Source: Hydrurus foetidus
Lineage: Eukaryota
Length of the DNA: 32,549 bases
Direction: 5' to 3'
NCBI GenBank assembly: GCA_900617105.1
Contig: UYFQ01000567.1
Location: 1 to 32,549 of the forward strand
The notes below the pieces were generated by a model. That model saw only the letters and a list, made by a program, of their open reading frames with translations, searched no databases and had not been told where the DNA came from. The translations under genes were made by a program, and so were the position numbers. Position 1 is the first letter of the stretch. Each line of letters starts with the position of its first letter. Shown here piece by piece: positions 3,641 to 31,700 of the stretch.

Positions 3641-4760
3641 GTGCTTGATGGTAACCTTGAGTGAGATCAAGTACAGCAAACACTTTTGCTTGATGTGCAC
3701 CTATTCTACGCAACATCTCACCGATGTGTGGAATAGGATGGTTTATTTTCGGTACAATTGTTGAGATTCCGAAAATCAATACACATGCGCTTAGTTCCAT
3801 CAGATTTAGGAACTAGTAAAACTTGGCTATAATAAGCCGCGTTTGATTTTTTAACAATGTTATGTTTTTCAAGTTTGTTAATCTGACTAAGAATGTCAGC
3901 TTGATCAACTGTTGATTTAGCCCATGGAGGTTGTCTATTTTTAGTGACTTTCCATTGGTCGTCATTGACATTAAAGTCAAAGGGTGGAATATCAGCAGGA
4001 GTGGCCGAAAGTTCACTGCTAAATACATCCTTGAATTCGTGTACTAGTAACCGAAGTTTATTTTTCTGATCTTCATTACCTGCTAAGTTTATTAGCGAGA
4101 GTAGGTCAGTATCAGGAAATTCATCTATCCAAGGTGAAAACGAGTCCTTGATCGAGTCGTCGATTTCGTCCTCATCAGGGGGCACAGCCTCAAAAAGTCT
4201 TTCAGACTCTTGTATTAGTGAAGCTAGAATAACATGTGTTTGGGTTACTGCCGGTTTCACCTTTTGGGTTAAAGGATCGACCTTTGGGGAGCCATCAGAG
4301 GGTTGCAACTTCTCCTTAGGCTGACAGCCACACGTTATATCCACTTGCTCAGAAGATAAAACTTCCGCTAATGAGGATGTGCTTGATGAAGCATTGGCAG
4401 ATATCTGATCGGGGAAACGTGAAAATAAATTCAATTCGCGAATTGTTTTTCGTCCCACTATTAGATCAAATTTCGAATCGTTTAAAACATAAGCCGTGAT
4501 TTGAAAAGTATAATAATTATTTAAATCAAGGCAAAAATAAGAAAGAGTTAAGTCTATAGTGTCAGAAATATCATAACAATGATTATCTAATCCACTACAA
4601 ACTTTACACAATTTCTTTGAAGAGTTAGAAACGAATTGTGTGAAATTATGATTAGTTATAATGCGGCGATGTATAAAGTTGCCAGCAAAAGAGCCGGTGT
4701 CCAGGAGAGTAAAGACTCTATTACTTTTTTCCAGCATAACCTCCTGTGAGAGGGAGATAC
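3641..4760 (-). CDS. pol: Pol of Gypsy B: aspartic protease plus N-terminal RT (truncated by insertion, frameshift near 3745)
   Basis: LLDTGSFAGNFI, VCSGLD, DLIVGR, RMCIDFRNLN and DLTQGYHQ motifs. Confidence 0.9.
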
Positions 4761-6233
4761 GAAGAAAGGAATAAGTTCTGGATCATCGGAAAGAATAGAT
4801 GATGAATTTAGGTTGCATAGTTGCTCACCTTTGTGTTTCTTCGCAGCGTTTGTCGAGTCTGCTGTTGAAGTAGCAGGTTTTGACGAAGAGGAAGACGAAG
4901 AGGAAGACGATGAAGAAGAGGTCGATGTCTTAGGTAAAGTTGGAATAAACTTAGCCTTTGAATCGACTTTCAACAACTGCTTATGACCCTCAGAGTTGAT
5001 ATAGGGTGCGTCTGTACTGTTATAGTACGGTGACGTAGTGTAGAAACACGTGGCGACGAAATGACCAAGTCTCCCACAACCTGTGCAGAGAGGTCTTTCG
5101 AATTTGTCAGACTTGTCTGACTGCACTGATTGTTCGCTCTCTCGTGGACGTTTTTTGATTTTGTCCTGAGAGGAACGAGCAGGAGCTTTGATTTGGCGAG
5201 AGTTATCACCATACAAAGGAGAGACATCAATGAACCGTAAGGCATCAATTGATTCTCGTAGCTTAGCAAGCTGCGCAAGCCATACGAATCGAAAGTCTTC
5301 GATTGTAATGAGTCTTGGCGTTGTATTGTTAAGACTTCGCTGTAACACTGCTCTCCAATTGATAGGTTCGACTTGCAACTTATCGATGAGAATTTTAGTA
5401 GCCTGAAGTTGGAGAGTGGGTGTTGCATCAGGGAATCCATCAACAATATCAGCTAAAAGCTGATCTGTCTTGTCTTCCACTGATTCATCCTTCAGGTCGA
5501 ATTGAAGTGCGACCTGAGAGACAGTTTCAATGAAACTCAGCTTGTCAGTTCGATTGACAGCTGATGTAGGAACTGTGAGATTTAGTTCTCTACAGAACAA
5601 TTGATTCGACCAATGTTTCCAATTGTTACAGGAGTCGCGACGATCGGGATCAGTTGCAAACTTACGCTTGAGAAGCGTTGTAAACGATTGATGGTTGGAA
5701 ACATGGACTACATCAACTGGTTTAAATGGAGTTCCATTTGAAAGGAGGACTTCCATTACCCGTAGTACTTCCTGACGAGAGGGCACGGCGCTCAACTTAG
5801 GAGCTCTCTCACCCGTCTGTACATATTGCTGGGGTGGTGACATCGTCCTTGGAATAGGATTCTCAGCAATAGCTGGTGTCGCGTTTGAATCTGGTATCGC
5901 AGCCGAAGCTGGTATCGCAGCCGAAGCTGGTATCGCAGCCGAAGCTGGTGTCGCAGCCGAAGCTGGTTGCAATGACAAAGCAGATAACGCCGAAATGACA
6001 GGAATATCAATGACAGACATGACCGCAGGCTCCGAATTCCGCTGAAGAATCGGTGCAGACAGGTCGCCGGCGGGGTCCTGAGCCGCAGGTGGCCCAGGAG
6101 ACTCTGCGTCTCCACTACGATTGTGATGGTCGTCATAACGTTGTCGGAACGCGACGGCTACAGCACGAGGTTGCTGCTTTCGCCGAAGGGCGTTGATGGA
6201 GGATGTCTTTTTGTCTTGGCGGCGTAGAGCCAT
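4656..6233 (-). CDS. gag: Gag of Gypsy B (predicted spliced form ends at TAA 4723-4721)
   Basis: 525-aa ORF, low-complexity N-terminus, CCHC knuckle, Ser-rich tail, directly upstream of pol. Confidence 0.8.
   Translation of the reverse strand: MALRRQDKKTSSINALRRKQQPRAVAVAFRQRYDDHHNRSGDAESPGPPAAQDPAGDLSAPILQRNSEPAVMSVIDIPVISALSALSLQPASAATPASAAIPASAAIPASAAIPDSNATPAIAENPIPRTMSPPQQYVQTGERAPKLSAVPSRQEVLRVMEVLLSNGTPFKPVDVVHVSNHQSFTTLLKRKFATDPDRRDSCNNWKHWSNQLFCRELNLTVPTSAVNRTDKLSFIETVSQVALQFDLKDESVEDKTDQLLADIVDGFPDATPTLQLQATKILIDKLQVEPINWRAVLQRSLNNTTPRLITIEDFRFVWLAQLAKLRESIDALRFIDVSPLYGDNSRQIKAPARSSQDKIKKRPRESEQSVQSDKSDKFERPLCTGCGRLGHFVATCFYTTSPYYNSTDAPYINSEGHKQLLKVDSKAKFIPTLPKTSTSSSSSSSSSSSSSKPATSTADSTNAAKKHKGEQLCNLNSSSILSDDPELIPFFVSPSHRRLCWKKVIESLLSWTPALLLATLYIAAL
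5891..5967. repeat. 18-bp minisatellite (~4 copies, ctggtatcgcagccgaag) in gag B, encoding PASAAT/PASAAI repeats
   Basis: Directly visible tandem array. Confidence 0.95.
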
Positions 6234-7029: not shown

Positions 7030-7596
7030 AGTGAGGGTTGAAGGAATGAGGGTTGCAACGAAGTAATCTTTTCTAAGGAAATTTGAATAGATTACTCAGA
7101 TTCTGAAGATAACTTCCCAAGAAAAATTTGAGAACTACTGGAGATTTGAAGTGACTTACCGAGTATTGTTGCACAGTTGCAAGATTCTGGTGCTGCTTGA
7201 AGTAGATATACAGATTTTTTCACAAAAAAAGTCAACTTAAAATCAGTTTTTTTGGCAGAAAATTTCTACTGAATTTTTTTGGCGCGATTTCAGTTGTAAA
7301 AAATAATCCGATTCACTAGAATCTGTTATTCCGTCAATATATTCCGGGGTGCGTGCTCCAGATTAAAAAAGTCAAAGCACAATGGGTCCGTTTGGTAAAT
7401 TCGACGAAAAAAACGGCGTTTTTTCGAAATCACGATTAGGACTTCGGATCGAGATCTGAAAAATCGTGTTTTTTTCGATTTTCGAAAAACCCGTTTTACC
7501 AAACGGCCCTTTTTTTTGATGACCACCAGTTGCGAAAACTGAAATCCCACCTTTAACCTCATACGTGTTCATGCACAACACATAATAGAGTAAACG

Positions 7597-8766
7597 ATGT
7601 TCAATCCTGATGATGGTCTATTAAACCTTGAATTGCTGGTTGCTGTTGTTTTGGCAGCTGAGAATATTGACGGTGTGCATCCAGTCATCCAACACGACTC
7701 CGAGCTCACTGGTGCGAAGTACTTTAGTGAGCTCATGCGCACCGAAAATGTGAACCGATTTCATCAAGTTGCCAGAATGGATAAAGATACATTTAGTCTT
7801 CTACTTAATTTACTCATAGATGTTGGCGGATTGGTTAATTCGATGTACATAAGTGTGGGAGAGAAAGTCATGATATTAATTTATGTGCTAAGGGGGCATA
7901 CAAATCGTGAGACATGCGAGCGATGGCAACACAGCGGAGAAACAATATCGAAAATAGTTCATGAAGTAAGCGACGCCTTACTGGGATGTGGTTATGTTAT
8001 ATACAAACCAGCACAAGTTGGTGATCCAACACCGTCGCATATTTCCAATAGTGCTAAGTTTTCACCATATTTCAACGATTGTATTGGTGCTTTAGATGGG
8101 TCTCATATTCCTGCAATAATCCCCTTGGAGGATCAAGGCAGATACTTTAATCGGAAAAAATTTTTATCGCAGAATGTACTAGGTGTTGCAAATTTTGACT
8201 TATCGTTTGCATACGCTTTATATGGATGGGAAGGAACAGCTCATGATAGCAGAGTATTGGATGATGCCAAAAACAAAGGTCTACCACTTATACCTGGAAA
8301 GTACTACCTGGGTGATGCGGGGTACGGACTTAGTACCACCGTACTTACCCCCTATAGGGGTGTACGTTACCATTTACAGGAATTTGAAATCAACGGAAAT
8401 GGACCTGTCAACAGTAAGGAATTATTCAACTTAAGACATTCCTCATTACGCAATGTTGTAGAACGTATCTTCGGAATAGTAAAAGCTAGGTTTCCAGTAC
8501 TAAAAAAAATGAGCCCGTATGAGTTCGAATTTCAATGCGATATTGTGCAATGCTGTTTTTTACTGCATAATTTTGTTCACCTCAATCAAACATATGAAGA
8601 TCAATTCTATGATGAAGCTGGTAATTTTGTTGATAATGATATCGATGAAGACGTAGTTTATGAACCAGTAGAGGACGGTGTATACAATGCATTGAAGATA
8701 TGGCGCAATGGTATCGCGGAGGAGATGTGGGCTGATTATCTCGCATATATGGCACTAAATACCTAG
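7597..8766 (+). CDS. Harbinger transposase (DDE_Tnp_4, HARBI1-like)
   Basis: Motifs CIGALDGSHIP, GWEGTAHDSRV, YYLGDAGY and FNLRHSSLRNVVERIFG; intact 389-aa ORF. Confidence 0.95.
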   Translation: MFNPDDGLLNLELLVAVVLAAENIDGVHPVIQHDSELTGAKYFSELMRTENVNRFHQVARMDKDTFSLLLNLLIDVGGLVNSMYISVGEKVMILIYVLRGHTNRETCERWQHSGETISKIVHEVSDALLGCGYVIYKPAQVGDPTPSHISNSAKFSPYFNDCIGALDGSHIPAIIPLEDQGRYFNRKKFLSQNVLGVANFDLSFAYALYGWEGTAHDSRVLDDAKNKGLPLIPGKYYLGDAGYGLSTTVLTPYRGVRYHLQEFEINGNGPVNSKELFNLRHSSLRNVVERIFGIVKARFPVLKKMSPYEFEFQCDIVQCCFLLHNFVHLNQTYEDQFYDEAGNFVDNDIDEDVVYEPVEDGVYNALKIWRNGIAEEMWADYLAYMALNT

Positions 8767-9060
8767 GGAAAGGAACAATAAAATCTTTTTTTTTCGATAT
8801 ATCGAATTTAACATTAATCCTATTGATTTTTTGAGGTCATATCCTGACAGTTTTTTCGATTTATCTCATCAACCAGTGCTCTGATCGGGATTCTGAGCGT
8901 ATTTCCTGATCATAGTTAATTCTATTCATTATTCCAGTGGGGGGCTAAACTGATACCGGGGCAAAACTGATACCGCTCTGTACTATACTCCGCACAATCA
9001 ACTGACATACCAACCCTCACAACAACCAATTAGGACATCGCCGGCGTCGATCAGAACACC

Positions 9061-9549
9061 ATGGATGCAACAGTGCCAGTAGACGAAGATGCCTACAACC
9101 ACTGGATTGAATTTTCGGGCGGTTTGCCAACGCTTCAGCAGAAAAAATGGATAACAAGTAGAGTCTTGAACAAAATCGAGAGCGCGGCGGACATTGCAAA
9201 AAGATACAACATCCAAAGAAAGTATATCAATATCCTTGTTCAGAGGATGCGTAAAAGATCCTATCTCAGAATGCTGCCGGGCAGACCGCGAGTTCTTGAT
9301 GCTGAAAGCCAACAGAAAATTGAAACTTCCATCGTAGATATGACGTGCGAAAATGACGATCACCTTACCTCGGCAATCAAAGAGGAATTCCTTGCAACCC
9401 GCCTGAGATTGGGCAAAGTTGATGCAGCTGACGATAGTACTGACGTTGTTGATCCTGTTAAGATTTCGAGGAGATCACTAAAGCGCTATCTTATCCGCTT
9501 TCATCCTGGAGTATTTCAAACATTTGACGCGCACTCTGCTGTTGTCTGA
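9061..9549 (+). CDS. Stand-alone HTH protein homologous to the N-terminal DNA-binding region of the element's transposase
   Basis: QKKWI...IAKRYNIQRKYINILVQR...GRPRVLD...KISRRSLKRYL aligns by eye with EKVWL...LSGRYGISRKILNLWVNR...GRPKLFD...PISRRSIARYI. Confidence 0.8.
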   Translation: MDATVPVDEDAYNHWIEFSGGLPTLQQKKWITSRVLNKIESAADIAKRYNIQRKYINILVQRMRKRSYLRMLPGRPRVLDAESQQKIETSIVDMTCENDDHLTSAIKEEFLATRLRLGKVDAADDSTDVVDPVKISRRSLKRYLIRFHPGVFQTFDAHSAVV

Positions 9550-9606
9550 AGATGAAGCTCAAACTGTTCATATTGATTCTGAATTATCCGTTTATTTACA
9601 AATAGA

Positions 9607-11381
9607 TTAAATATCTTCTACTGCTACTACTCCTACATTTTTTGCTCTTTTGTTCGGCTTGGGGTTCTGCTTCTTTAACTCTGCATCTGCTTTGCGCTTG
9701 ACAGCTTTGGCAACCTTCTCTGTCTCGAGTGCTTCTTTCGCCAGCTTCTTGTCGTCCTCACTAGCGATAAATGCGCAGTTAGTTAGGAATACAAATCTTC
9801 GACGGTTGAGGACGAGATCATCAATGCATCTACCATTTGCCCTGGACATGTTGTCCATATCTAAGCGTTCCATGTCCTTCATAGACAACTCCCCATTGGT
9901 CTTCATCTGATTGCAAAGGAATGGCATGTGCTCCCAAACTCTCGTGATCTCATCAGTAGTGAAAGCAGTTTTGCACTGACCCAAAATTTTCTCAACATCG
10001 CATCCCCCGCCCTTTCTGTCGAACTGGCCGCACGTACTGAATGAGTCGGTAATTGTGTCTGATCTTAAAGTTGACTGAATTATATGTTTCACTACCTGCA
10101 GTCCCTCTGCTATTGCTTTCACATGCGCCGCAGACATTTTCTTCCCAACGAAAGTTTCATGCAGCTTGATGAAGTTTTTGTGACGCTCGGTAGATTTGGA
10201 AATCAGTATATCCTTGATATTCTTAAGTCCCTTTTTTTTGTTTTGGATGCCATAAAACATGTCCCAACATCGCACGGCTGGTAGATTGAGGTTGTAGAGG
10301 CAGGCAACTTCCCAATGACGATATTGTGTTCTAAGCACATGTTGGCAACCTCAGTGGTTCTCAGCGGCTTGATCTGAACATCCTCCCCATCAAGTGTAAA
10401 ATAAGCTGGTGTCGTCAGAGGTATTTGATTTAGTATCCTTATGTCAGTGACAAACTTGATGAAGACACTTGAGAACCACCATCTATAGAACTCCTGGTTG
10501 ACGCTTCGAGTTTTAGAAAATACTACCCAACCAGTCGACAGTATATCAGTCCCGATTCCCAGACCGGATACCTCATGGTAGTCTATTGTCCCCTCCACCA
10601 TGTTGTCGTCAGCAATTATGTAAACAGGAGGAGCAGAGACACCCATAGCAGTGATACACATATAGAACTTGATGAAAAATGCTGTCAAGGTAGACCCTTT
10701 CACTGCCATGACTTTCAACGGTCCTTTCTTCTCAACCCTCTCTAGTGGGTCATAGAGAACCTGAACCTTGTCTGTTAGGCCACCCGAAGTTTGATATGAA
10801 GTCCCATCGGCATTGATCGCTAGATCAGGAACCGTCAAAGGCATCATCAAGAAGTGCGCCACAGCGACGGTAACAGCATTGAGCTTATCCGAAGTAGCGA
10901 GAGCTCTTGCGTCGGTGGTCTGCTCCGCATTACCGACTTTGAGACCGATGGCATCAATGTAACGTGCTATGGACCTCCGTGAGATAGGCTTGACCGATGA
11001 TCCAGCAACAGCTTTTGTTTTGACGACTGCTTTCACGTGCTCTGACTGTAAATTGCGAACGAAATCTGATTTTACTGTGTTGTGAATATTGCCCGAAACA
11101 GACGATCTCAGTTCTGCTTTCGCGGGAGAATCAAATAATTTTGGTCTGCCAGCATCGTGCACCTTTCCATTCTTTGAGAATCTGTTAACCCAAAGATTCA
11201 ATATTTTCCTGGAAATGCCATAGCGTCCAGAGAGTTCTGGTGAAGATACTCCATGATAGAAGATCTCATGAATAAGCCAAACTTTCTCAGCTGTCGAGAT
11301 TGAATTCGATTTTAATTTTGGTGTCCGTCTCCCCCAAGGACTAGGGAGCCTCTCGGGAGTCGATGGCGGAGAAGTTGACAT
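9607..11381 (-). CDS. pogo-like (DDE_1-type) transposase, ~591 aa, one frameshift at the A8 run near 10232-10239
   Basis: N-terminal HTH plus GRPK; catalytic motifs INADGT, TLDGE and LPASTTSIYQPCDVG (39 residues between the 2nd and 3rd Asp); ORFs 10203-11381 and 9607-10338 overlap. Confidence 0.85.
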
Positions 11382-11605
11382 TTCACCGCGATGTCCTAAT
11401 TGGTTGTTGTGAGGGTTGGTATGTCAGTTGATTGTGCGGAGTATAGTACAGAGCGGTATCAGTTTTGCCCCGGTATCAGTTTAGCCCCCCACTGGTATTC
11501 CCGACTTAGACGAATTGACTCCGTGTGGAAGAAAAAAAACCAGATTCGGTCCAAGGTTTTTTTTAAAAATTACGACCCCTCAAAATTTTATCCGGGCCTC
11601 CGTAC

Positions 11606-12585
11606 TTATTTGCCCTCTAGGGCATCTAACTTACTCTTTATGAACAGAGTTTGCTGCGCATCAGTGAATGATAAGAACTGATTGACATATGAGGAATTGT
11701 CTGCTAACAAGCCTATGAAGTCCATCTCTTTTTGCATGTCTAACAGTTCAGAGTGCTTATCTTTTAAAATACTAACAGCCTTATCGAATGGAGATAGCCT
11801 ATTCTGGTAAGTATCCTGATTTGACACTATCTTTGAGAGCAATTCATGAACTAAACTGACAGGCTTGGATTTTACCACTCTTACAAACGGTCGCACTGTC
11901 TTCAGCTCTTTTGCAACTCTGTCGACATTGCTTACTTGGGTTACTTCCACCTCACTGATGTCATCTTCATCCACCGGCACCCTTTTCCTGTGGCTTGATG
12001 CTGAATCAAGCGAAGGCGCTTCCAAATCCACCACGGCTGGAGAAAGGAAATCCACAGAGACGCTTGGAGCAGATTGACGAGGGGTCATAGGAGCCCTAGC
12101 AAATCGACCAGTTGCTGAATCCGCTGTGTATTAGGGAAGTACAAATATTAGCATATAAAACGAGTATTAATGTGTATTTAAGATTACTTACGTCCAAATA
12201 ATGCCGTTAATTCGTTAAAAAACATCAATGGTCCATCGGCAAACTCAGCAGCTTTTGGATGGCTAGCATAATACTCGTTTAATGCTTCTGGGGCACCAGT
12301 GACCATACCACTTGCATCCATCCCAAAACCACTTTGGTTTGCATACTTTGTGAACTCAAGGTATTTCTTCTTCAAAGAAAAACATTGAGTTTTAAGCATC
12401 TCTTTGTTATACTCTAAACCTGTCCTGATTTTGAACTCGTCAGCTATGATCTGCCAAGCAGTCTTGTCGTTAGACAAGTTTGCAAATCTGCCGGCAGAAT
12501 GCTTCGTCAGTAGGTCGATCAGAACTTTGCGGTTCATGTTCGACCACTTCGCCACGTCCTTTTTCTTGAAGGACGTCGACATCAT
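11606..12585 (-). CDS. Harbinger Myb/SANT-like DNA-binding protein; exons 12585-12192 and 12123-11606
   Basis: Trp-spaced Myb/SANT-like region (KWSNMNRKVLIDLL...AWQIIADEF...LKKKY); GTAAGT...CTAAT...CAG intron 12191-12124 joins the two ORFs in frame (LFGP-DSATGRFA). Confidence 0.9.
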
Positions 12586-12842
12586 TATGCTATATTGTGT
12601 AGTATGTAGTGCATAAACGATGGTTGCTACGACAGTTACCTCGATATTTTTGAACCAGGATGATCGGGTCCCAGACGATTCGAGGGGAAAGCTCTTTCTC
12701 GTGGAATCGCGATTTCTCGAAAAAAAATCGGTTTCAGAAATTTACCAAACACCGGATTTGAAAAAATTGAGAAATTTCAAAAAAACGGGGGGAAATCTCG
12801 TGGGATCGCGATTTTTCGGTTTACCAAACGCACCCAATAGCT

Positions 12843-13035
12843 CAAGGGTCGTGTTTAATGCATTTGTCGTTTTCAATCGGGTACCAGCCCCGCACACAAC
12901 AACACACAGCATTTTTCATGCTGGGCGGTCCCCCTGGGGAATGTTTTATTTTTCAGTCATGAAAAATGCTGTGTGTTGTTGTGTGGGGGGCTGGTACCCG
13001 ATTAAAAACGACAAATGCATTAAACACGACCCTTG
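12843..13035. mobile_element. 193-bp foldback MITE with ~78-bp TIRs
   Basis: 12843-12920 is the reverse complement of 12958-13035 with about 2 mismatches; AGCT on both flanks. Confidence 0.85.
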
Positions 13036-19598: not shown

Positions 19599-22500
19599 CT
19601 AAGCTAAGTCTTTGTCGGGCCACCCAGTGACTCCGTGTCTCTCCAATCTGAATTGTCCCCCCTGAAGCGGCTTCGTCAACATGTTAGCGTACATGTCCTT
19701 CGTCCCGAGGTGCACCACCCTTGCCTCTCCCATGTCCACCCACTCCTTCAGCCAAAAGTATCTGATGGAAATATGTCTTGTGCGCTCCGCCGCTGACCGC
19801 CCGCGGTCTATGAGAGCCATGCATGACATGTTGTCTTGATAGATCGTAACCGGCGCGCACGCGTGTCCTTGCCCTATGATGAAATTTCTCACGTGTAAAG
19901 CTTGGTTAGATGAGTCGGACAGTGCGACCAGCTCTGCCTCCGTGCTTGACTTCGTCACGATCTGCTGCTTCACGGACTTGCAATGTACTGCACCCCTTTC
20001 TCCCACCACAACGCAGCTCCCAGTGTGTGATCTCCCATCGGGATGTACCCCGAACGCAGCATCGATCAGGACACTCACGGCTATTCCCTTCGCTCCCGGT
20101 GCGAGCACTATGCCTCGGTCTCTGGTCGCCCATACATATCTCATCAGACGGTCCAACTTGGTCAGGTCGTCCGTGGTGCACTTGGTCACTCTGGTGGCGA
20201 GGAAAGCTACTGCTGTCAGGCAGTCCGGTCTCGTTCTCTTCGCTAAGTATAGCATCTTCGCTACTCGGCGATGGAAGATCACTCTCTCTTCCTCGCTCGC
20301 GTTTTCGATGTCCGGCCTCACATCGAATAGTCCCTCGGTCGCGGGAGTCTGCGCACCCTTGGCTGTCCCCGCCTCCTTCAGCATATCGTCCACGTAACCT
20401 GTCATTGAAACTTTGGCTACACCCTGCGAGGTTAAGTCAAACACCATCCCAAGGTAGTTCACTACAGGTCCGTCTTTCCTTGTTATATCTCCATACCTAA
20501 TGACCAGTCCCTCTGCAAGTGCTTCGATCATGTCTGCATCGGTGCTCGTGATCATCAAGTCGTCCACGTGGACAGCTATGGTGCATTGCACCCCGAGTGG
20601 GTTCCTTTTGTTGAACACGCATATGTCGATCGCATTGGGAGTGTACCCTAGACCGTGTAGACTCGCCTTCAGGTTCTCGTACCAGAGCGCCGCGGATTCC
20701 ACGCATCCGTATAGTGCCTTGTCTAGTCTCACTACGACGCACCCTCTGTCATTCATGTACCTCGAGTAGTGTGGTGCAAGCTTTGTCATCATCCCTGTCA
20801 TGTTCTTGTCTAAACGCATATGCACGGCAAGCCCGGCGTTCATGTCCGCGTTGAGGTATGCACCGCTGATGTCTATGACCGTCACCCTACGACCCTCGTG
20901 TGCCGCGATGCATAACAGAGTGAATACTGAGCTGGTCCCCACTGTCGGAGCGGACAAGTCATCGTAGAGTGTCTTGTCTTGTTGGTCTCCGCCCGCGACG
21001 AGCCTCGCCTTGAGTTTCTCGAATTCACCGCTGGCTAGGAATTTCTCTTTGAGGAACATGCTCGATCGGATGATGCGCGCCTTCTCCTCTCTCGGGAGTC
21101 TCTGTTTGTCCACTGGCGTCCATACTTTCTTTTTGATCATTTGCCCGAGCTCTTTGAGTATCACGCTCTCGGCTTCTTTCCCTCTCGTGCGCAGTGCCTC
21201 ATTCACTGAGATGTTCAACACGTATTCCTTCCAGTCGCCACCTACGGAGTTATAGTTACGAGTGAGTAGCGCAGCTCCATGTTTGTCGCCTCTAAACATG
21301 TCCATCAGTTTCTGTCTGGGCAACACTAGATGTCCTACGCTGGAGTATCTCTCTGCCGCCTCGGTTGCCTCCTCCATAATTCCGAGGTCTATCGCTCCGT
21401 TCTCTCCGTAGTCCTCAGGCACTCCCTGTTCATCACCGTATTCCACTCGCACTGCATCTGGACTCCCTACTTCAAGTTGTCTGAAGCTGCTCAGCAGATC
21501 GTCCATGTCAACCACCCTAGGCTCTATCCTTACTCTTGGTGTCGGTATCATATCGTCCGCGTAGTTCGACTCCTCACTGTAAGGTTCCTCCTCGTGCGCA
21601 TCGAGCGCGATATTCATCTCTTGGTCTGCTTCAACGTATATGAGCTCTTGCTCGTGACTCTCATCCATGAGCGACACCGCTGGATCTACCCCGTTGTTAA
21701 CCTCAGTCTGAATTGTCTCAGGTAGACCGTTTCTCATCTCACCGTCTTGCTCGAACCTAACAATGCGTTTCTCTAACTCACCCTTTCCTTTGACCCTACC
21801 ATCTGCTAGTTCAAGCTCATTTAGTTTCTTGTAACGGACTCTGGCATGGGCATAATAATGAATTGGTCCCTGTTCACTACCTTCCCGGTCGCTAAAGACA
21901 GCATTCGTACGGTCCCCGTACAGTTCCCTAATGGCAATATTACTACGCAGTCCTCGGTTCGCAGTTTTAGAGTCGCGTCGGTGTTCGGCACTGTACATTG
22001 AACATAGTCGCCGAATGAATAGCGGAATTCTCTTTTGCCGTCTGGTTTCCTCCCTATGAAGGCCTCCCTCGGGCTAGGGCCCCATTCCCGTTCTCCGTAC
22101 GGTTCGTAGTTCACCCTAGAAACTACGTACATTACGCACATAGCAATACCCACACTCGATAATGTGAAAGGCAGAATGTATACATGTGAACGTAACCTTT
22201 CTTTGATAACTCGAATCCTTCGTTCGATTCTAGCGACGTGGCCGCCCGCTCCACTGACATCGACATCTACTCCGAGCTTCCCTAGTTCGTCGACCAGAGT
22301 GATCACAGCTCCCTCTCCATCGCTCATGATCACCGAGGTCTTAAATCCTTGGGATCCTAGCACTCCTAGAAAATGGGCTATTCCTTTCCTCACGTGCTCT
22401 GCTGACCTGGTCGACTTCTTGAGCACTAGGTTGTTTAGACTATATGCTATAGTTAGTCCTAGAGGAGTCGCTAGGCCGATTAGAATAGCAATTTTGTCAA

Positions 22501-24421
22501 TAAACATAATGTCGATTGCCAGCACCTGATCCTTTTGGACTATTTTCGCTTTCACCGATATGTCGGCCGTAGGAGTAGCATGTTTCGTGGTCTTCCCTTT
22601 GATGGAGGCAATGTCCTTCCTCCAAATGGCTTCTGCGATCTCAAAATCTCTCGCCGAGATATCAAAGTTGCTCCCGGAGTTCACGATCGACATCGCTGTC
22701 CCGACGGTCGGGAATCCCATTCTGCCCATTAGCTCGCGCGCCGATCTCGCACGGTTGATTTCCCTCTTTGTCAATGCTTTCAGGTTCTGATTCACTGTGG
22801 TTACCATAGCTGTCTCTGCCTCGACGGTCCTCCAATCACAGGAGTAGAACCTCCCGCCGCTACCAGGTATAGTTTTACGACCGAACTTATACACGTTGCT
22901 GCTCCCCCTTGGTTGTAACGTGAAGACGTCTTCCTCGTGGTCATATCGAATGATTGCTCCTGCATCCACTTGTGTCGCAAAGGATAGGACGTTGGCTGAT
23001 GATTCTCCGCTGTAGAATACTGTTCCAAACTCTCCGAAATCTCCTTCGTTGTCGACTGTAACTCCCCCTCCAGCTTGAATGCCGCTGACTTTGATCGACT
23101 GCTCTGACTTGCGTATCCTAGAGAGCTGATTCTTGTTGCTGAAAATGTTTAATGAGGCTTCGTTGTCGAGAAGTACATCGTACTGTGTGAACATGCACCT
23201 TTCATTCAATGCAACAAGTGCAATCCCCCACTCGCCTTCTCCACTCTCATCGTCACTGTCAGGTTCAGCCTTCGATACGTGGACTTTCTCTCCTTTCGAC
23301 TTTCTGTTGGGACAGTTTCTCGCGTAGTGACCTTTTTCTTCGCAGGTGTAACACTCCACTTCGGTTAGTGGCTTCTTTCTGGTACCTCCGGTTTTCCCGG
23401 CTGCCTTCTCGGTGTCTTTCGACAAGGTGATGTGGACTTCTTCGGTAACGAGTGCGACCCCGGGTGTGTGAGGCGGGTCCTTGGGTGCTCCCCCATCTAT
23501 TCCCTGATAGCGTGAGGCTATGCTGTATGCCCTTGCGAGTGCGCTGGGGTAGGCGTCGGCCTTGTGTCTAGCGGCGTCGTTGTTCATGTCTTGAGTCATT
23601 TTACGGTATCGCTTAGGGTCAAGCTTCCCGAGGAAGTCTAGTGCACGTCGTGAGTCTGTGACTTTGTCGGCTCCGACTGCATCATTAGCTAGCACCTGTT
23701 CGTCGAATCGTGCTTTAAATGTATGTATGAGCTCTCTCTCACCTTGTCTCATCGCACCGTACTTACTCTCTTGTTCGTGCCTGTTCACTTCTTTCATCGG
23801 GTCTGAGTCACCATACATGTGGGTGAGGTGAGTTTTCCGAATGAGTGTCCACAGTAGTACACAGTTCAGTGTCATGTACGCTGTTCTGTACTCCTCCTCT
23901 TCTTTCACTCTGTTCTGTGAGCTCGGCGACATTCTCTTCCACATCATCGGGTAGACGGTACGTTCGCTCTCCTTCTGAGTTTTGAGGTCTCTTTGCCTCT
24001 GGATGTAATCCTCTTCTCGATATTTCGCTCGTGAGCGTTCTGCGGCATTTCGTCGCCTTTCGTTTCGAACCTCCCTCGCGGCGGCTCTTGCTGGTTTACC
24101 CGCGGTGTGCGCTAGGAGTGCCGCTGTCTCAGCAGCTGTAGGTGCAACTACGTGCTCTTGTTCTTCGTCTTCGTCAGCTGGAGCATCTGGCTCCGATTCT
24201 GACATCGAGTCTTCTGACGACGAGGCGTCTGGGTAGTGAAGGATTGTCCTTGGTAGTTCGTATCTCACATCTGTTGTGAAGAACATACCGACTATGCCGC
24301 ATAGTTCTGTGACTATAGTCTGCATACTCTCTCTCCACTTTATAGTGTTGTTGAATTTGCCATATTGAAGGATGCACTCCTCAGTGCTTTTCGAAGCTTC
24401 AACGGCGCGTTTGGGAGGCAT
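19599..24421 (-). CDS. Copia gag-pol polyprotein with one frameshift near 21830
   Basis: CYTCEEKGHYARNC; LLDNEAS; integrase DIMF/SDGEG/IERRIR; RT KARLVAGG, LDKALYG, VHVDDL; RNase H IDAAFG, STEAEL, YQDN, ANMLTKPL. Confidence 0.93.
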
Positions 24422-25208: not shown

Positions 25209-27784
25209 TGTTAGATGTTTGGGCTCATAGAGCCATTCATTCATCTATCTCCAACTTGGATAGACCCATGTGCAATTGCGTTGATATGTAAAGCTTCGTT
25301 GCCGTCTTGATTGATGCCGGTGCACAATTTTAATTATCAAGTAATACACACTACAAGTCTACTTTTACGAGCCTTGGGTCACCAGTCGCACGAGTCACAA
25401 AGCATCCGGGCTTCGAGAAATCCCAACGTAATTAAACTAGATCAGCGCATCGAGATGCCGCCGAAGAAATAAGAAGAACCAAAGTTAGCTGTAGAGCAGT
25501 GCATGCTGAGAATCGGACGATACAACAACGTAGTGCAGTGGAGGGAAGACATGCAGAACGAGGCATGCGGCCTGTACGGTATGACAGGCACTTTCTTCAC
25601 CACCAACAAGAGTTACGTCCATCCGTATCCTCGAGAGGAGGATTACAATCCCACCTTTCAAACGGTGGAAATCGATACTGCGACAGCGGGTACCGAAAAT
25701 GAAGACGAGGACGACGACGAATCCGTGAACCTCGAGAATGTCATGATCGGGCCACAGCGCCCACCAGCGCCTCCTGTCGTGTACTCCGAGGAAAAACTAA
25801 GGAAAAACTTTAGGCGCAAAGGAAAAAGTCTCGGGGAAGGGAGCCAAGGGGAAGACTGCAGGAACGAAAAAGAAATCATCGTCAGTGATTTGTTTCGTTT
25901 GTGGAAACACAGGACATTTCGCCAGAGATTGCGAACAACGCAAGGATTCGGAGCATGCAATGCTCACCAATGTCGAGGAGGACATCGAAGAAGATGACGA
26001 GAGCATAGGAGCAGCATTCGTCACGACAGACGAGTTCGTCCTGTTCACTCGTAGTCATGTGCTGCTAGACAACCAGGCGTCTGTGAACATATTTTGCAAT
26101 CCGTCATTGCTGACAGACATTAGAAAATCGCAACATGCGATCCTTCTCAACGGAGTCCAGTCTGAGGCGAAGGGTGTCCGAGTCGACCACGAGGGAGACT
26201 TCGGAGACATCGGGCCTGTTTACTTCAGTCGGGGAGCGACAGCCAACACACTGTCATTCGCGGCGATGGCAGACAGCGGTGCGGACATCAGCTACGAGAG
26301 TGGGTGCTTCAACTTACGGCCCGCCGGCAGCAGGACAACGTACAACTTCAGCAGGCAGAGTCTGCCAGGCTCATCAGGAAGATTCTACGTGTGGGATGCG
26401 AGAAGCGCTGCAGGGCAGGCGCACCAGATGCCGGAGCAAGCACTGGTGACGGCCGTCGAAGACAACATGAGGCGCCTCACAAAGCGCGAGATTGCACAAG
26501 CAGCAGCAGCCAAGGAGCTGCTAGCACTTATGGGTTACCCTCCAGTCAAGATGGCGATCGCGATGATTAGGGGGGGTAACAACTTCAGCGTCTCAGAAGC
26601 AGATTTTCGAAACACTCATTCTATCTAGAGCAAATGTCTCGCCATTCTCTGAGGCAAAACTCACAAGAAATCGTCGCCTGTAGCCGACATTTCTCGGACA
26701 CCTGCACCAGCGCAGCAGCAGCAAGTCTTGAGTGTGGACATTATGTATCTGGAGGCCACAGCAATACTTATCGCCGTTTCAACCCCTCTAGATATGACCC
26801 TCGCCATGAGCCTCATGCGACTCAATACCGAGAAGACCTCTCGAGCTGCTGCAATTGTGAAGCCGGCACTGAATGAAATGATATCCATACTCAAATCCAG
26901 GAACTTCTTAGTGCAGGTCATCATGTCCGACGGCGAAGGTGCAATCGGCAAAATGAGGCTCGATTTGCTGGCACTGGGAATTGAGGTAGATGTCAGCGCA
27001 GCTGGCGGTCACGTCGCTAGGATTGAACGGCGGATTCAGATGGTGAAGGAGCGAGCACGCGCTCACATCAACGGTGGAATTCCATTCACTCCTACCGAAC
27101 TCTGTCTTACCTATCTAGCTCTATACTGCGTCGCCCGCATTAACTGTCAGCAGTCAGGATCAAGGCCCGGGGGTCTGTCGCCAAGGGAATTATTTTCAGG
27201 ACGGAGGGTTGACGGGAACCTGGACTTTCGTGCCGCATACGGGGATTACGCTGTTTGTACCGTACCTAACACGAATAACTCTATGCAATCCAGAACTGAA
27301 GATTGCATTGTCATGCTCCCTACACACAGCAGAACTGGATCGTTCAAGATGCTATCACTGGCTGCAGGCAAGATCGTGACAAGAGACCAATTCAAGATAC
27401 TGCCGATGACACAGTCAGTCATAATGACGCTGAATGCCATGGCAGTCAAAGAAGGGAAGAAAATAACTCAAACCCAACTTCATATGCTTGATGAACAACT
27501 ATTCGCAAAGAGTCTAGACAAATCTAAAATGCCATCCTTCATTACCAACCCCCCACTCAGGATGCCATTGTCGACCCGGTATCGGTGGATTACCAACCCA
27601 CACTCACCGACCTACCATCAGCTGACAGCATTTTCGAGATTCCTCCTTCCGATGTGGGGGGGGTGGATACCAGTCGCAGCCGAAGCCACACCACCATCAG
27701 GCGAAATCGAAATTGCGGCAGTCGAAATCGGAACTGCGGAACTCGAAACAATTGGGATGCACGAACGAGACCTACTCACACCAC
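25209..27784 (+). mobile_element. Degenerate Copia element related to the full-length one (probable 5' LTR 25209-25428, gag with internal deletion, protease, integrase), interrupted by Gypsy C
   Basis: MPPKK* start at 25455 homologous to MPPKR; CFVCGNTGHFARDC; LLDNQAS; DIMY/SDGEG/IERRIQ; in-frame stops at 25470 and 26626. Confidence 0.9.
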
Positions 27785-27992
27785 TGTGGCTCCCTCAGGG
27801 TCTGCTACCCCATTCAGCCGATTAGATGCTGTTTCCACCTTAGTACCTTCGTGTTCACAGCCACGACTATCAGTCACTAGCTAGTTTGTGCTGCTTTGCA
27901 GAAGTTACTAGCGTACCTTCTGCCTTCATCCCTAACTAACTAGCTCCTTTTAGCCTTTAGATTTCCCTTCTCTTTTGCCTTCCAAGGTCACA
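27785..27992 (+). repeat. 5' LTR of Gypsy C (~208 bp, TGTGGC...GGTCACA)
   Basis: Imperfect inverted TG...CA termini at the point where the Copia sequence stops; followed by a boundary palindrome as in A and B. Confidence 0.72.
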
Positions 27993-28734: not shown

Positions 28735-31700
28735 ATGCCGTTATCCGATGACTCTTCGGAGATATCGCCGTCGCTCGCCGAATTAACCACTCAATTAATT
28801 CCGGCAGCGACGACTGTTTCAAAAACTCAGTCGACACCAACACCGCCGACAGCAGTAGCTGCGTCTGATGGAACTGATCGACCGGTATTCCCAGTAACAA
28901 TACTGGGACCTACCAACAGTTCCAATCAGGCGCCGCCTAATCGTCATATCGACGACGACGACGACGTTCACACAACGCGACAACATGACAATGTCACGTT
29001 GCGTTCGTCAGACGCTAACCGTCAACAAACACGCCATAATGGCAACCCTGACCGGGATGATGACGACGGCGATACTAACCCTCGCCGCCGTATAGATTCA
29101 CCCCCGCAACGATATCTCCGTCGTCGGGGCCTCGACAGTTACGACAACTCAACTCGTCGGAATAACCCCGTCGAAGGAGATGCAACGGGCGACTATCCGC
29201 CCACTCCGAATCAACAGAGTGGCAGCGAAGACGGTGATGACGGTAATCGTTACGATAACCGTCAACGCCACGATCCTAACCAACGTCAATACAATGACGA
29301 TAATCGCAACAACAACGATTATCGACGTTCTAATGATGACAATCAAGGTCACAACGACAGTCGTCGTAACTACGATGACTCCAACCCTCCCAGGGACAAC
29401 CGTAATACGGGCCCTCCATACGGTACGGAGCACCGTAACGACGTTCGTTACGATAACGAGGGACGTCAATATAACGATGATCGCCGCAATGACAACCAAC
29501 GTCAAAGCGATAATCGTCGTTATAACGACAATTACCGTCAGAATGACGACAACCACGACTACGACAACGATGGTCGTCGCGGCTACGACACCCCATTCAA
29601 CGACGACAACAGACGTCAATACGACGATCGACGCAACAGCGACAATCGTCGCAACGACGACAACCCACGTCAGAATGACGGGCGTCGCGATCACGACTAT
29701 CGCCAACAAGACGACAACCCTAACAGGGATAATCGCAGAGACACTTTCCAACGTCACAACGATAACCCCCAAAGGGATAATCGTAATTACGAGGATTCTC
29801 GTCGTAATGACAACCCAAACAGGGGAAATTATTCGACTAACACTCGCAGTTTCGATAATTCTCGCGACGACAACAACGACAGTTTCCGTCAGGGAGACAA
29901 CAACCCCAATAGGAGAAGTCGTCGAGAACCTCCACAGGGTTACGATGACAGTCCCCCAAGGGATTATCCTCAAGGAGACAATCGTCGCCAACAGGATACC
30001 TCCAACCGGGGCAACCGTAATACTGACGGTCGTCAGTACAACGACAACCAGTACGAGGACGAACGTGCGACTCCACGGGCAACCGTACGCGTTACCGACA
30101 ACTCTCGACTACTCGAGAGTCGCGATACGCGCATCCCCGAAAATGTGGAGACAATAACCCGCACAGCGGACGTTCCTCGCAAACGCGCGTCACCTCCACA
30201 AGAGGGTCCCATATCACGCAAGCGACAAGCTTCCCCACCAGGGTCACCGGAACGGCCTACATACGTACGTACGTTCACCGGTGACACGGATTACAACCCA
30301 CAACCCCAACGAGTCATCCAGGAGATCCCACGGGAAATTCGGGTTCCTAACCCACTCCCCTTGGATCCTCCAGAAATCGTGATACTGCCTGCAACAGCTC
30401 GCGTAATCGATTACGAGCAGCAAACAGCAGCATTCCGAGCTGCAGGGGGCGGTCCCGACCCCAATGCAGCGCACCCGGTACGACCACCGATACCACGGTA
30501 CATACACGATCGTACGTCACCGATCAACGTACCCGCGGTACAGTTTGCCACACCCAATGCGGCACCTACAGCGCTTGTAGTGGGTGGCCGTGCTGTGGAC
30601 GATGGTTCCCGACCCATCTCCGCTATTGCTTTGCAAACGGTGCTTTACGTTCTCAACGTAAATGCGTCAGGCATTATTGGACAAGAGGCAGCACGGGAGT
30701 TTTTCGAACACTCCCAGAGGTGGACCAACAACTACGATGTTGGTCAAGTCATCTCGACTAAAGCAGTCAGGTGTATCGATGATCAGATCCATACGGATCA
30801 AGATTATCCATATGCGGAAGAGACACGTAAAGTGTGGCTCCAGACGCTGACGGTCCCTCAAGTAGCACAATTAGTCCTGCGCTACTTTCGCGCGGACACA
30901 CAGCTAGGACAGTCACTAGCTGAGCATTTCTCGGAAGTCCATCTCGCCTTTTGCTACAACAAAAGGGAGATTGAGATGCGCTGCATGACACAGTTTCGTG
31001 AGGTGGTGGAGAACCATGTACAAGTACATGGCCCACTCAGCACCTCCGACCATGCTGCACTCACTCTCATCTTCGAGAAAAAGATGCCTCTTAACGGTGC
31101 CATCACCGCCAAATACAAAGAGCATAAACGCGTCAATCCCGCATGACGTGGACGATTGGGAATTCGCGATGCGTCGCTTTTTCTCCCAAGTCAATGCGGT
31201 ACGCCAACTTCAGCTACACGTAGCGGCTTTTGGGGACCCCAACGACATTTATTGTCACCCCGCTACCCAAAACCCATACGGGTTGTCTCTCACGACGAAC
31301 CCCAAAACCCTGTTGGTTGGTGCGGCACTCCCAGCTTTACCACCGCTGGCACTGCCAACAACACCACTCCGACAGTGTAACTCGTGTGGACATATGGACC
31401 ATCTGCTGAAAAATTGCCCACACATGTGGATGGTGGATTCAAACACCAACCACAATGTTCCGTGGGACCACTCCAACATGGGTCGCACGTGGGCACAATA
31501 CGGTCATGCGACCTACCCTATCAATGATCGCATCCCTGGTCTGGGCCGCTTTAAAATCCACATACCCCGTCGTGAAACAAATTTCACTGATGAGGTACTG
31601 AATAAAACTCAGCCCCCAGGGGGTGGTCAAAGAAAAAATACCAAGGGAACCCCAATCATGGGGGAACTATAATCGAGGTCCACCAACAAACCGCGATACG

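What the first reader, a model, noticed from the sequence alone, without database searches (positions are those of the whole stretch)
8934..11495. Two-gene pogo-like transposon encoding a stand-alone paralog of its own transposase DNA-binding domain
Seen: each identical 108-bp TIR is followed within about 20 bp by an ATG. One opens the transposase (11381, minus strand); the other opens an intact 162-aa ORF (9061, plus strand) that matches only the transposase's bipartite HTH region (shared K.W, RY.I.RK, GRP and ISRRS..RY) and is highly diverged. Established: pogo/Tc1/mariner elements are normally single-gene, and truncated transposases can act as repressors (P-element KP). Inference: an old, maintained accessory gene driven by the symmetric TIR promoter, acting as an autoregulator, TIR competitor or transpososome cofactor.
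Basis: partly seen in the sequence, partly recalled or inferred. Interest (0 to 1): 0.8.

Follow-up and report, generated by a model that had tools for sequence, protein, structure and literature searches.

The report
Pogo-like transposon with twin DNA-binding gene
This jumping gene carries, facing its transposase, a second intact gene that is an old copy of the transposase's DNA-binding front end; related elements likely carry the same pair, and the small protein likely binds the element's ends to regulate jumping.

Summary
Confirmed and extended. 8934-11495 is a mobile pogo-like element with identical 108-bp TIRs, sitting in a Harbinger element; the empty site exists in other runs. Corrections: the target duplication is 4 bp (TATT; other flanks fit NATN), not TA; spacing is DD39D; this copy's transposase is split at an A8 run, which other copies do not share. 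ORF2 (162 aa) matches only the transposase's two-HTH front end (profile probability 98.9%). It belongs to a family of about 155-aa stand-alone proteins (85 clusters at 50% identity). Across these four elements ORF2 is as conserved as the transposase's own DNA-binding domain (42% vs 36%) and groups apart from it in a tree, so it is old and maintained. Against: recent pN/pS is 0.47 (transposase 0.09), a 36%-identical relative lacks ORF2, expression and binding are untested. Most likely a TIR-binding regulator; whether it represses or helps is open. Precedents (Spm TnpA, IS1 InsA, IS3 OrfA) arise by partition or frameshift, not by a kept duplicate. The scan noted no look-alike DNA, but a similar design in a bacterial element.

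The parts
8930..8933 (+). Left target-site duplication TATT (4 bp)
   Evidence: Empty site in contigs of X1 and X3: joint 8929 to 11496, 2566 skipped, 4 letters fit either side
8934..9041 (+). Left TIR, 108 bp, starts CCAGTG
   Evidence: 100% identical to right TIR
8941..8974 (+). Two tandem 17-bp repeats in the TIR (core AAACTGATACC), a degenerate third at 9000-9011; candidate HTH binding sites (inferred)
9061..9549 (+). ORF2, 162 aa, stand-alone bipartite HTH (predicted helices 25-36, 42-49, 53-64; GRPR linker; 81-92, 99-117, 137-147)
   Evidence: family
9550..9606 (.). 57-bp AT-rich gap between the two convergent stop codons
   Evidence: sequence
9607..10260 (-). Transposase, 3' part (second frame); continues like the C-terminal 200 aa of full-length relatives
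10232..10239 (-). A8 run where the reading frame breaks in this copy; contigs of X1, X6, X9 have one more base, X3 and X7 match the window
10203..11381 (-). Transposase, 5' part: bipartite HTH and catalytic triad D192, D331, D371 (DD39D)
11388..11495 (-). Right TIR, 108 bp
11496..11499 (+). Right target-site duplication TATT
7383..12836 (.). Host element: PIF/Harbinger (DDE_Tnp_4 gene 7597-8766 +, Myb/SANT gene 12184-12585 -, imperfect 17-bp TIRs); the insertion lies between its convergent genes
   Evidence: empty copies at about four times the depth of the insert in X1 contigs

Best explanation
This is a mobile two-gene pogo-like DNA transposon whose second gene is an ancient duplicate of the transposase's DNA-binding domain, likely inherited with the transposase through the clade and likely acting as a TIR-binding feedback regulator that damps the element. 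Shown: structure, mobility (empty site, other flanks), homology limited to the two-HTH domain, a separate ORF2 lineage, conservation of its predicted DNA-contact segments. Inferred: both genes are transcribed inward from the same promoter in the identical TIRs, so ORF2 is made in step with transposase; having the DNA-binding domain but no catalytic core, it would occupy TIR sites, lowering promoter activity or end synapsis, and so keep copy number tolerable for the host. Origin, inferred: an inverted copy of one end (TIR plus 5' part of the gene) replaced the other end, then diverged.
For: Homology confined to the DNA-binding domain; same six-helix layout in both models; best, weak fold match of ORF2 is the CENP-B DNA-binding domain over both HTHs (Foldseek E 0.07; Z 5.2, rmsd 7.9, 109 aligned). 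85 clusters, 67 of 83 examined are 135-190 aa, none longer than 350 aa. 10 exact contig-length matches among 31 ORF2 and 178 transposase values against 1.5 expected, 9 in three cluster pairs; chance of any pair sharing 3 or more 1e-4. In the four pairs ORF2 identity is 42% vs 36% for the transposase N-termini and 19% across; HTH1 44%, GRPR linker 51%, last helix 68%. ORF2s fall outside the clade of 25 close transposase N-termini (SH-aLRT 97). 84%-identical relative is also 162 aa, changes 11 of 125 core vs 17 of 37 outer residues. A complete relative without ORF2 shows it is not part of the core machinery. InsA and OrfA repress by binding the IRs (PMC13181058, passage); MuDR drives two convergent genes from TIR promoters (PMC3440606, passages). 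L003 shows a fold-back of a related transposase gene.
Against: Against a 2%-diverged variant ORF2 has 6 synonymous and 10 non-synonymous changes (pN/pS 0.47, P 0.12 against neutrality), the transposase 17 and 5 (0.09); 40 of 69 rows were shown. ORF2 does not clearly track its own transposase: own-pair matching ranked first of 24 permutations for HTH1 but not in 4 other windows (P 0.17-1.0), and its last helix stays constant while the transposase's drifts, which a competitor for the same site need not do. A trans-acting repressor is harder to keep by selection on the element than a helper (general reasoning). Co-location in the three other elements rests on contig lengths; orientation and TIRs were seen only for the window and its close variants.
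Confidence: 0.45

Rival explanations
1. ORF2 is a positive regulator like Spm TnpA: it binds the TIR or subterminal repeats and activates or protects the element from silencing.
For: TnpA has a tandem two-HTH domain derived from a transposase and acts as an anti-silencing activator (bioRxiv 10.64898/2026.08.24.746577, abstract, section 6, part 1 of section 9). A helper is easy to keep by selection; ORF2's constant last helix suits a site other than the transposase's. Acidic, variable segments at both ends of ORF2 proteins.
Against: No conserved region outside the DNA-binding domain that could recruit host factors (residues 1-24: 24%, 118-134: 20%). No data on silencing in the host.
Confidence: 0.22
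2. ORF2 is a transpososome cofactor or targeting factor: it pairs with the transposase or binds target DNA, which could relate to the unusual 4-bp NATN duplication.
For: Long co-inheritance; equal promoters would give fixed stoichiometry; 4-bp non-TA duplication.
Against: L001 has the same CCAG-type end and AT-centred flanks without ORF2, so neither the ends nor the target type need ORF2 there; the transposase keeps a complete DNA-binding domain.
Confidence: 0.2
3. ORF2 is a captured passenger from a wider family of solo HTH genes and acts on something other than this element (host promoters or a rival transposon's ends).
For: About 50 distant family members have no known context and are about equally far (median best identity 30%) from all 29 transposase N-termini tested; the tree does not resolve where the family arose.
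Against: Its closest catalytic relatives are these same transposases by profile; placement right behind the TIR; co-inheritance across the deepest splits of the clade.
Confidence: 0.1
4. ORF2 is a neutral remnant of an inverted duplication or nested insertion.
For: pN/pS 0.47 not significantly below 1; one decayed or chimeric homolog (P0006); protein databases only list frames that are still open.
Against: Open frames of 149-172 aa at 35-45% identity with motif-focused conservation cannot persist neutrally; no DNA similarity left to the transposase gene.
Confidence: 0.03

Closest known systems
pogo superfamily of IS630-Tc1-mariner (Gao et al. 2020, PMC7386202; Dupeyron et al. 2020, PMC7325037)
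   Same: DDD triad with pogo-type last motif, spacing inside the DD29-59D range, bipartite HTH like CENP-B, about 100-bp TIRs, 2.5 kb.
   Different: 4-bp NATN-type duplication (paper lists TA, TAA, TAAA); invariant DD39D; Pfam DDE_1 below cut-off; a second gene that is a DNA-binding paralog is not described in the passages read.
Spm/CACTA TnpA (bioRxiv 10.64898/2026.08.24.746577)
   Same: Element-encoded stand-alone tandem-HTH protein derived from a transposase DNA-binding domain.
   Different: Other superfamily; described as partition of the domain from the transposase by splicing and gene splitting, whereas here the transposase keeps its domain and ORF2 is a duplicate on the opposite strand.
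IS1 InsA and IS3 OrfA (via PMC13181058, passage)
   Same: DNA-binding part without catalytic core, binds the inverted repeats, regulates transposition.
   Different: Bacterial; they are the transposase's own N-terminus made without frameshift (recalled), identical in sequence, not a diverged separate gene.
Maize MuDR (mudrA/mudrB; PMC3440606)
   Same: Two convergent genes with promoters in the TIRs.
   Different: mudrB is of unknown function there and not described as a transposase paralog; other superfamily.
Multi-ORF ITm elements: TBE, Tec (PMC7325037), Fanzor-bearing mariners (PMC3627910)
   Same: ITm elements with extra genes exist.
   Different: Extra genes are zinc-finger, recombinase, nuclease, methylase or unknown ORFs; I did not compare ORF2 with the small TBE ORF.
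P-element KP and 66-kDa repressors
   Same: Transposase-derived repressors that keep DNA binding.
   Different: Recent deletion or splice products of the same gene (KP recalled; 66-kDa title seen in the reference list of PMC4120734).

Membership tests
IS630-Tc1-mariner group | RNase H-fold DDE/D transposase with N-terminal bipartite HTH | tested here: met
   Best fold match Mos1 paired-end complex, Foldseek E 1.2e-4 (low TM); triad kept in 26 of 27 rows, one has G at the second D
IS630-Tc1-mariner group | Terminal inverted repeats | tested here: met
   108 bp, identical
IS630-Tc1-mariner group | TA target duplication (pogo variants TAA, TAAA) | tested here: not met
   4-bp TATT by empty site; other flanks CATT, GATC twice, GATT/TATC
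pogo superfamily | DDE_1 (PF03184) catalytic domain, DDxD | tested here: inconclusive
   3 of 27 members hit DDE_1, best E 0.006, under the cut-off; Atlas neighbours all DDE_1 clusters at 0.90-0.94
pogo superfamily | CENP-B_N / HTH_Tnp_Tc5-type DNA-binding motifs | tested here: inconclusive
   0 of 27 transposases hit them; 4 of 57 ORF2 proteins hit CENP-B_N weakly; CENP-B top fold match, weak
pogo superfamily | Nests within pogo in a transposase tree | not tested
   No reference pogo transposases were in hand
PlantMar / DD39D mariner | Mariner-type transposase, plant host, TA duplication | tested here: not met
   Shares only the number 39; TA not met; no mariner Pfam hit in 27 members
Sola2 | AT-rich 4-bp duplication (AWWT, PMC3627910) and Sola transposase | tested here: inconclusive
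   4 bp fits, sequences TATT and GATC do not fit AWWT; transposase not compared with Sola sequences
InsA/OrfA-like or TnpA-like regulator (function) | Binds the element's ends and changes transposition or expression | not testable with these tools
   Needs binding and transposition assays

The most novel reading that the evidence does not exclude
An undescribed clade of DD39D pogo-like transposons with 4-bp NATN targets runs on a two-protein system: a transposase plus a dedicated, anciently duplicated DNA-binding subunit made from the mirror TIR promoter; the 80-odd distant solo proteins are the regulators of a much wider, unrecognised radiation of such elements, a ready route from transposase to transcription factor by duplication inside the element.
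Probability: 0.4. Interest if true: 0.82.

Novelty: new variant of a known kind. Interest (0 to 1): 0.7.

Why it matters
ITm elements, the source of Sleeping Beauty-type tools and of CENP-B-like host genes, are treated as one-gene systems whose self-limits come from overproduction inhibition and broken copies. A clade that keeps a separate DNA-binding gene under selection gives a clean test of how a eukaryotic cut-and-paste element regulates itself (with and without ORF2), a natural intermediate between transposase and transcription factor, and a compact, recently mobile transposase with non-TA targets.

Tried and rejected
No genome held for the window, so copy number and further insertions could not be counted. 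DNA scans: metagenome scan gave 3 loci of 37 candidates, none from the close clade; viral scans 0 of 28, 0, 0 of 23; prokaryote genomes 0 of 12; three scans with ORF2 alignments could not run for lack of a conserved stretch. RNA: no RNA holder listed; about 6% of two poly(A) runs with the same species label gave 0 and 4 reads, one pair on ORF2 in the sense expected for a stranded library; the organism's presence in those runs was not shown, so no conclusion. Complex prediction of ORF2 with the transposase was not available. VIA-align for the transposase model never ran. PDB sequence searches found nothing significant. Word-seeded search with the ORF2 alignment found only 5 proteins. Atlas for ORF2: generic Tc1/IS630-type HTH clusters at 0.89-0.92, lead only. 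Programmed frameshift at the A8 run: rejected, relatives are about 590 aa in one frame and fragment ends of 112 aligned partial proteins do not pile up there. Reading the ends as TA duplication plus an asymmetric left end: rejected, another left flank is GATC. Co-evolution of recognition helices: 1 of 5 windows at P 0.04 uncorrected. Neutral simulation: 14.5% of 1500 runs stay open at 28 changes without indels, weak alone. Bacterial promoter scan uninformative. A literature search with a guessed host group rested on no evidence and gave nothing relevant.

Full report
Element. Window 8934-11495 has identical 108-bp TIRs with two 17-bp internal repeats. Contigs from X1 and X3 join 8929 to 11496, skipping 2566 bases with 4 letters fitting either side; four more runs show the same joint with only 30 letters on the short side. 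The element is 2562 bp, so the duplication is 4 bp, TATT. Other junctions have flanks CATT (X1), GATC (X6 and X7, one site), GATC (X9, another site); the distant L001 has GATT and TATC, which do not match each other and may be a collapsed contig. All have a central AT. Only the window's duplication is proven by an empty site. The insertion lies between the convergent genes of a Harbinger element.

Transposase. The gene is broken in this copy at an 8-base run (10232-10239). Contigs of X1, X6 and X9 have one more base there, one X13 contig has another extra base, X3 and X7 match the window, so both forms exist in nature. 49 homologs were found, the full ones about 590 aa, 30-66% identical. The spacing between the second and third acidic position is 39 in 27 of 27 aligned rows. 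Pfam DDE_1 is hit by 3 of 27, below cut-off; Atlas neighbours are DDE_1 clusters; the best fold match is Mos1. It is an ITm transposase, most like pogo, but not a clean member: Gao et al. list TA, TAA and TAAA duplications (PMC7386202, section 8 and passages read).

ORF2 is a paralog of the DNA-binding domain. It starts 19 bases inside the left TIR, the transposase 6 bases inside the right one. Similarity covers transposase residues about 20-146 and stops before the catalytic core. The ORF2 model (pLDDT 83) has three helices, a GRPR linker and three helices, as in the transposase model; its best match in two searches is CENP-B 1-129, at scores that alone are not significant.

ORF2 is a family. 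Close relatives at 94% and 84% are both 162 aa; a third is decayed or chimeric. A profile search of 1.84 billion representatives gave 85 hits; of the 83 new ones the median is 155 aa, 67 are 135-190 aa, 80 start with M, none exceeds 350 aa; one (P0133) looks by eye like a cut transposase. For 76 hits of 125-192 aa the best match among 29 transposase N-termini has median identity 30%, so they are not recent truncations of these transposases. In a quick tree of 60 ORF2-like rows (25 truncated or fused hits dropped first) and 28 transposase N-termini, 25 close transposases form one clade (97), the window's ORF2 lies in a separate 11-row clade (89), and one long-branch transposase falls among the solo proteins; 40 of 85 inner branches are weak.

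Co-inheritance. Direct: single contigs in X7 and X9 span both genes at about 2% divergence. Indirect: I compared contig lengths printed for 13 ORF2 clusters (31 values) and 49 transposase clusters (178 values; members listed for 20 of them). Ten values match exactly, 1.5 expected under jitter, none of 20000 null runs reached ten. Nine fall in three pairs: P0061/P0016 (4), P0060/P0018 (3), P0057/P0033 (2); the tenth is probably chance. Of 13 ORF2 values long enough for both genes, 3 had no match. The partner transposases are 56-67% identical to each other and lie in different branches of the clade; all four ORF2s are in the same ORF2 clade. This shows shared contigs with high odds, not orientation or TIRs.

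Selection. Across the four elements ORF2 proteins are 39-46% identical; on one alignment 42% against 36% for the transposase N-termini (for the fourth element a cluster member with a full N-terminus, P0291, stood in), with peaks at HTH1, the GRPR linker and the last helix. Recent divergence is less clear: 6 synonymous and 10 non-synonymous changes in ORF2 against 17 and 5 in the transposase (Fisher P 0.02), from the 40 of 69 rows shown. Codons 1-91 have 5 and 1, codons 92-162 have 1 and 9 (split chosen after seeing the data); a structure-based core has 5 and 5. ORF2 is constrained in its DNA-binding parts, less so than the catalytic core.

Not universal. L001, a complete 2.44-kb element with a 36%-identical transposase and 66-bp TIRs, has no ORF2 and no remnant by profile search. 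ORF2 was gained after this split or lost in L001.

Mechanism. A DNA-binding domain without a catalytic core, made from a mirror copy of the transposase's promoter region, most simply acts at the TIRs. InsA and OrfA repress that way (PMC13181058, passage); Spm TnpA, derived from a transposase's tandem HTH, activates (bioRxiv 10.64898/2026.08.24.746577; abstract, section 6, first part of section 9); MuDR shows convergent genes from TIR promoters (PMC3440606, passages). I put repression first (0.45), activation (0.22) and cofactor or targeting (0.20) next. Transcription from the TIRs, binding and direction are all inferred.

Novelty. Paper searches and passages of PMC7386202, PMC7325037, PMC3627910 and PMC4120734 showed multi-ORF ITm elements but none with a duplicated DNA-binding gene or this target type. 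The library lacks most subscription papers and Repbase, and I did not open the supplements of the two pogo surveys, whose element tables might hold relatives. The scan's own index has no look-alike of either protein but notes similar designs elsewhere, unchecked. Verdict: real, maintained, a new variant of a known kind; interest 0.7.

Noticed in passing
window 7383-12836: Multi-copy PIF/Harbinger element, the target of the insertion; a further 160-aa frame at 11606-12088 may be a second exon of its Myb gene.
   Followed up: partly
window 10232-10239: The 8-base form of the run occurs in two lineages 2% apart (window/X3 and X7), the 9-base form likewise (X1; X6, X9): repeated slippage or old polymorphism that switches the transposase off while ORF2 stays open.
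   Followed up: partly
window 8785 and 11531: Single-base differences in homopolymers against both X1 and X3 contigs, possibly assembly errors in the window or copy differences.
   Followed up: no
L003:43-2326: A distant transposase gene folded back on itself as a long 77-92% inverted duplication; a model for how an end plus 5' gene part can be mirrored.
   Followed up: partly
window 12878-12920 and 12958-13000: 43-bp near-perfect inverted repeat 37 bp apart, just outside the Harbinger end.
   Followed up: no
window 19599-24421 and 25503-27825: Copia-type LTR retrotransposon reading frames, split (read from ORF translations; not scanned).
   Followed up: no
window 3718-6233 and 28735-31672: Gag/protease/RT-like frames of gypsy type, one with a long low-complexity N/D/R-rich region (not scanned).
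   Followed up: no
proteins P0058, P0069: Family members with tandem repeats of the solo DNA-binding unit (350 and 326 aa), as expected if some copies evolve into larger DNA-binding proteins.
   Followed up: no
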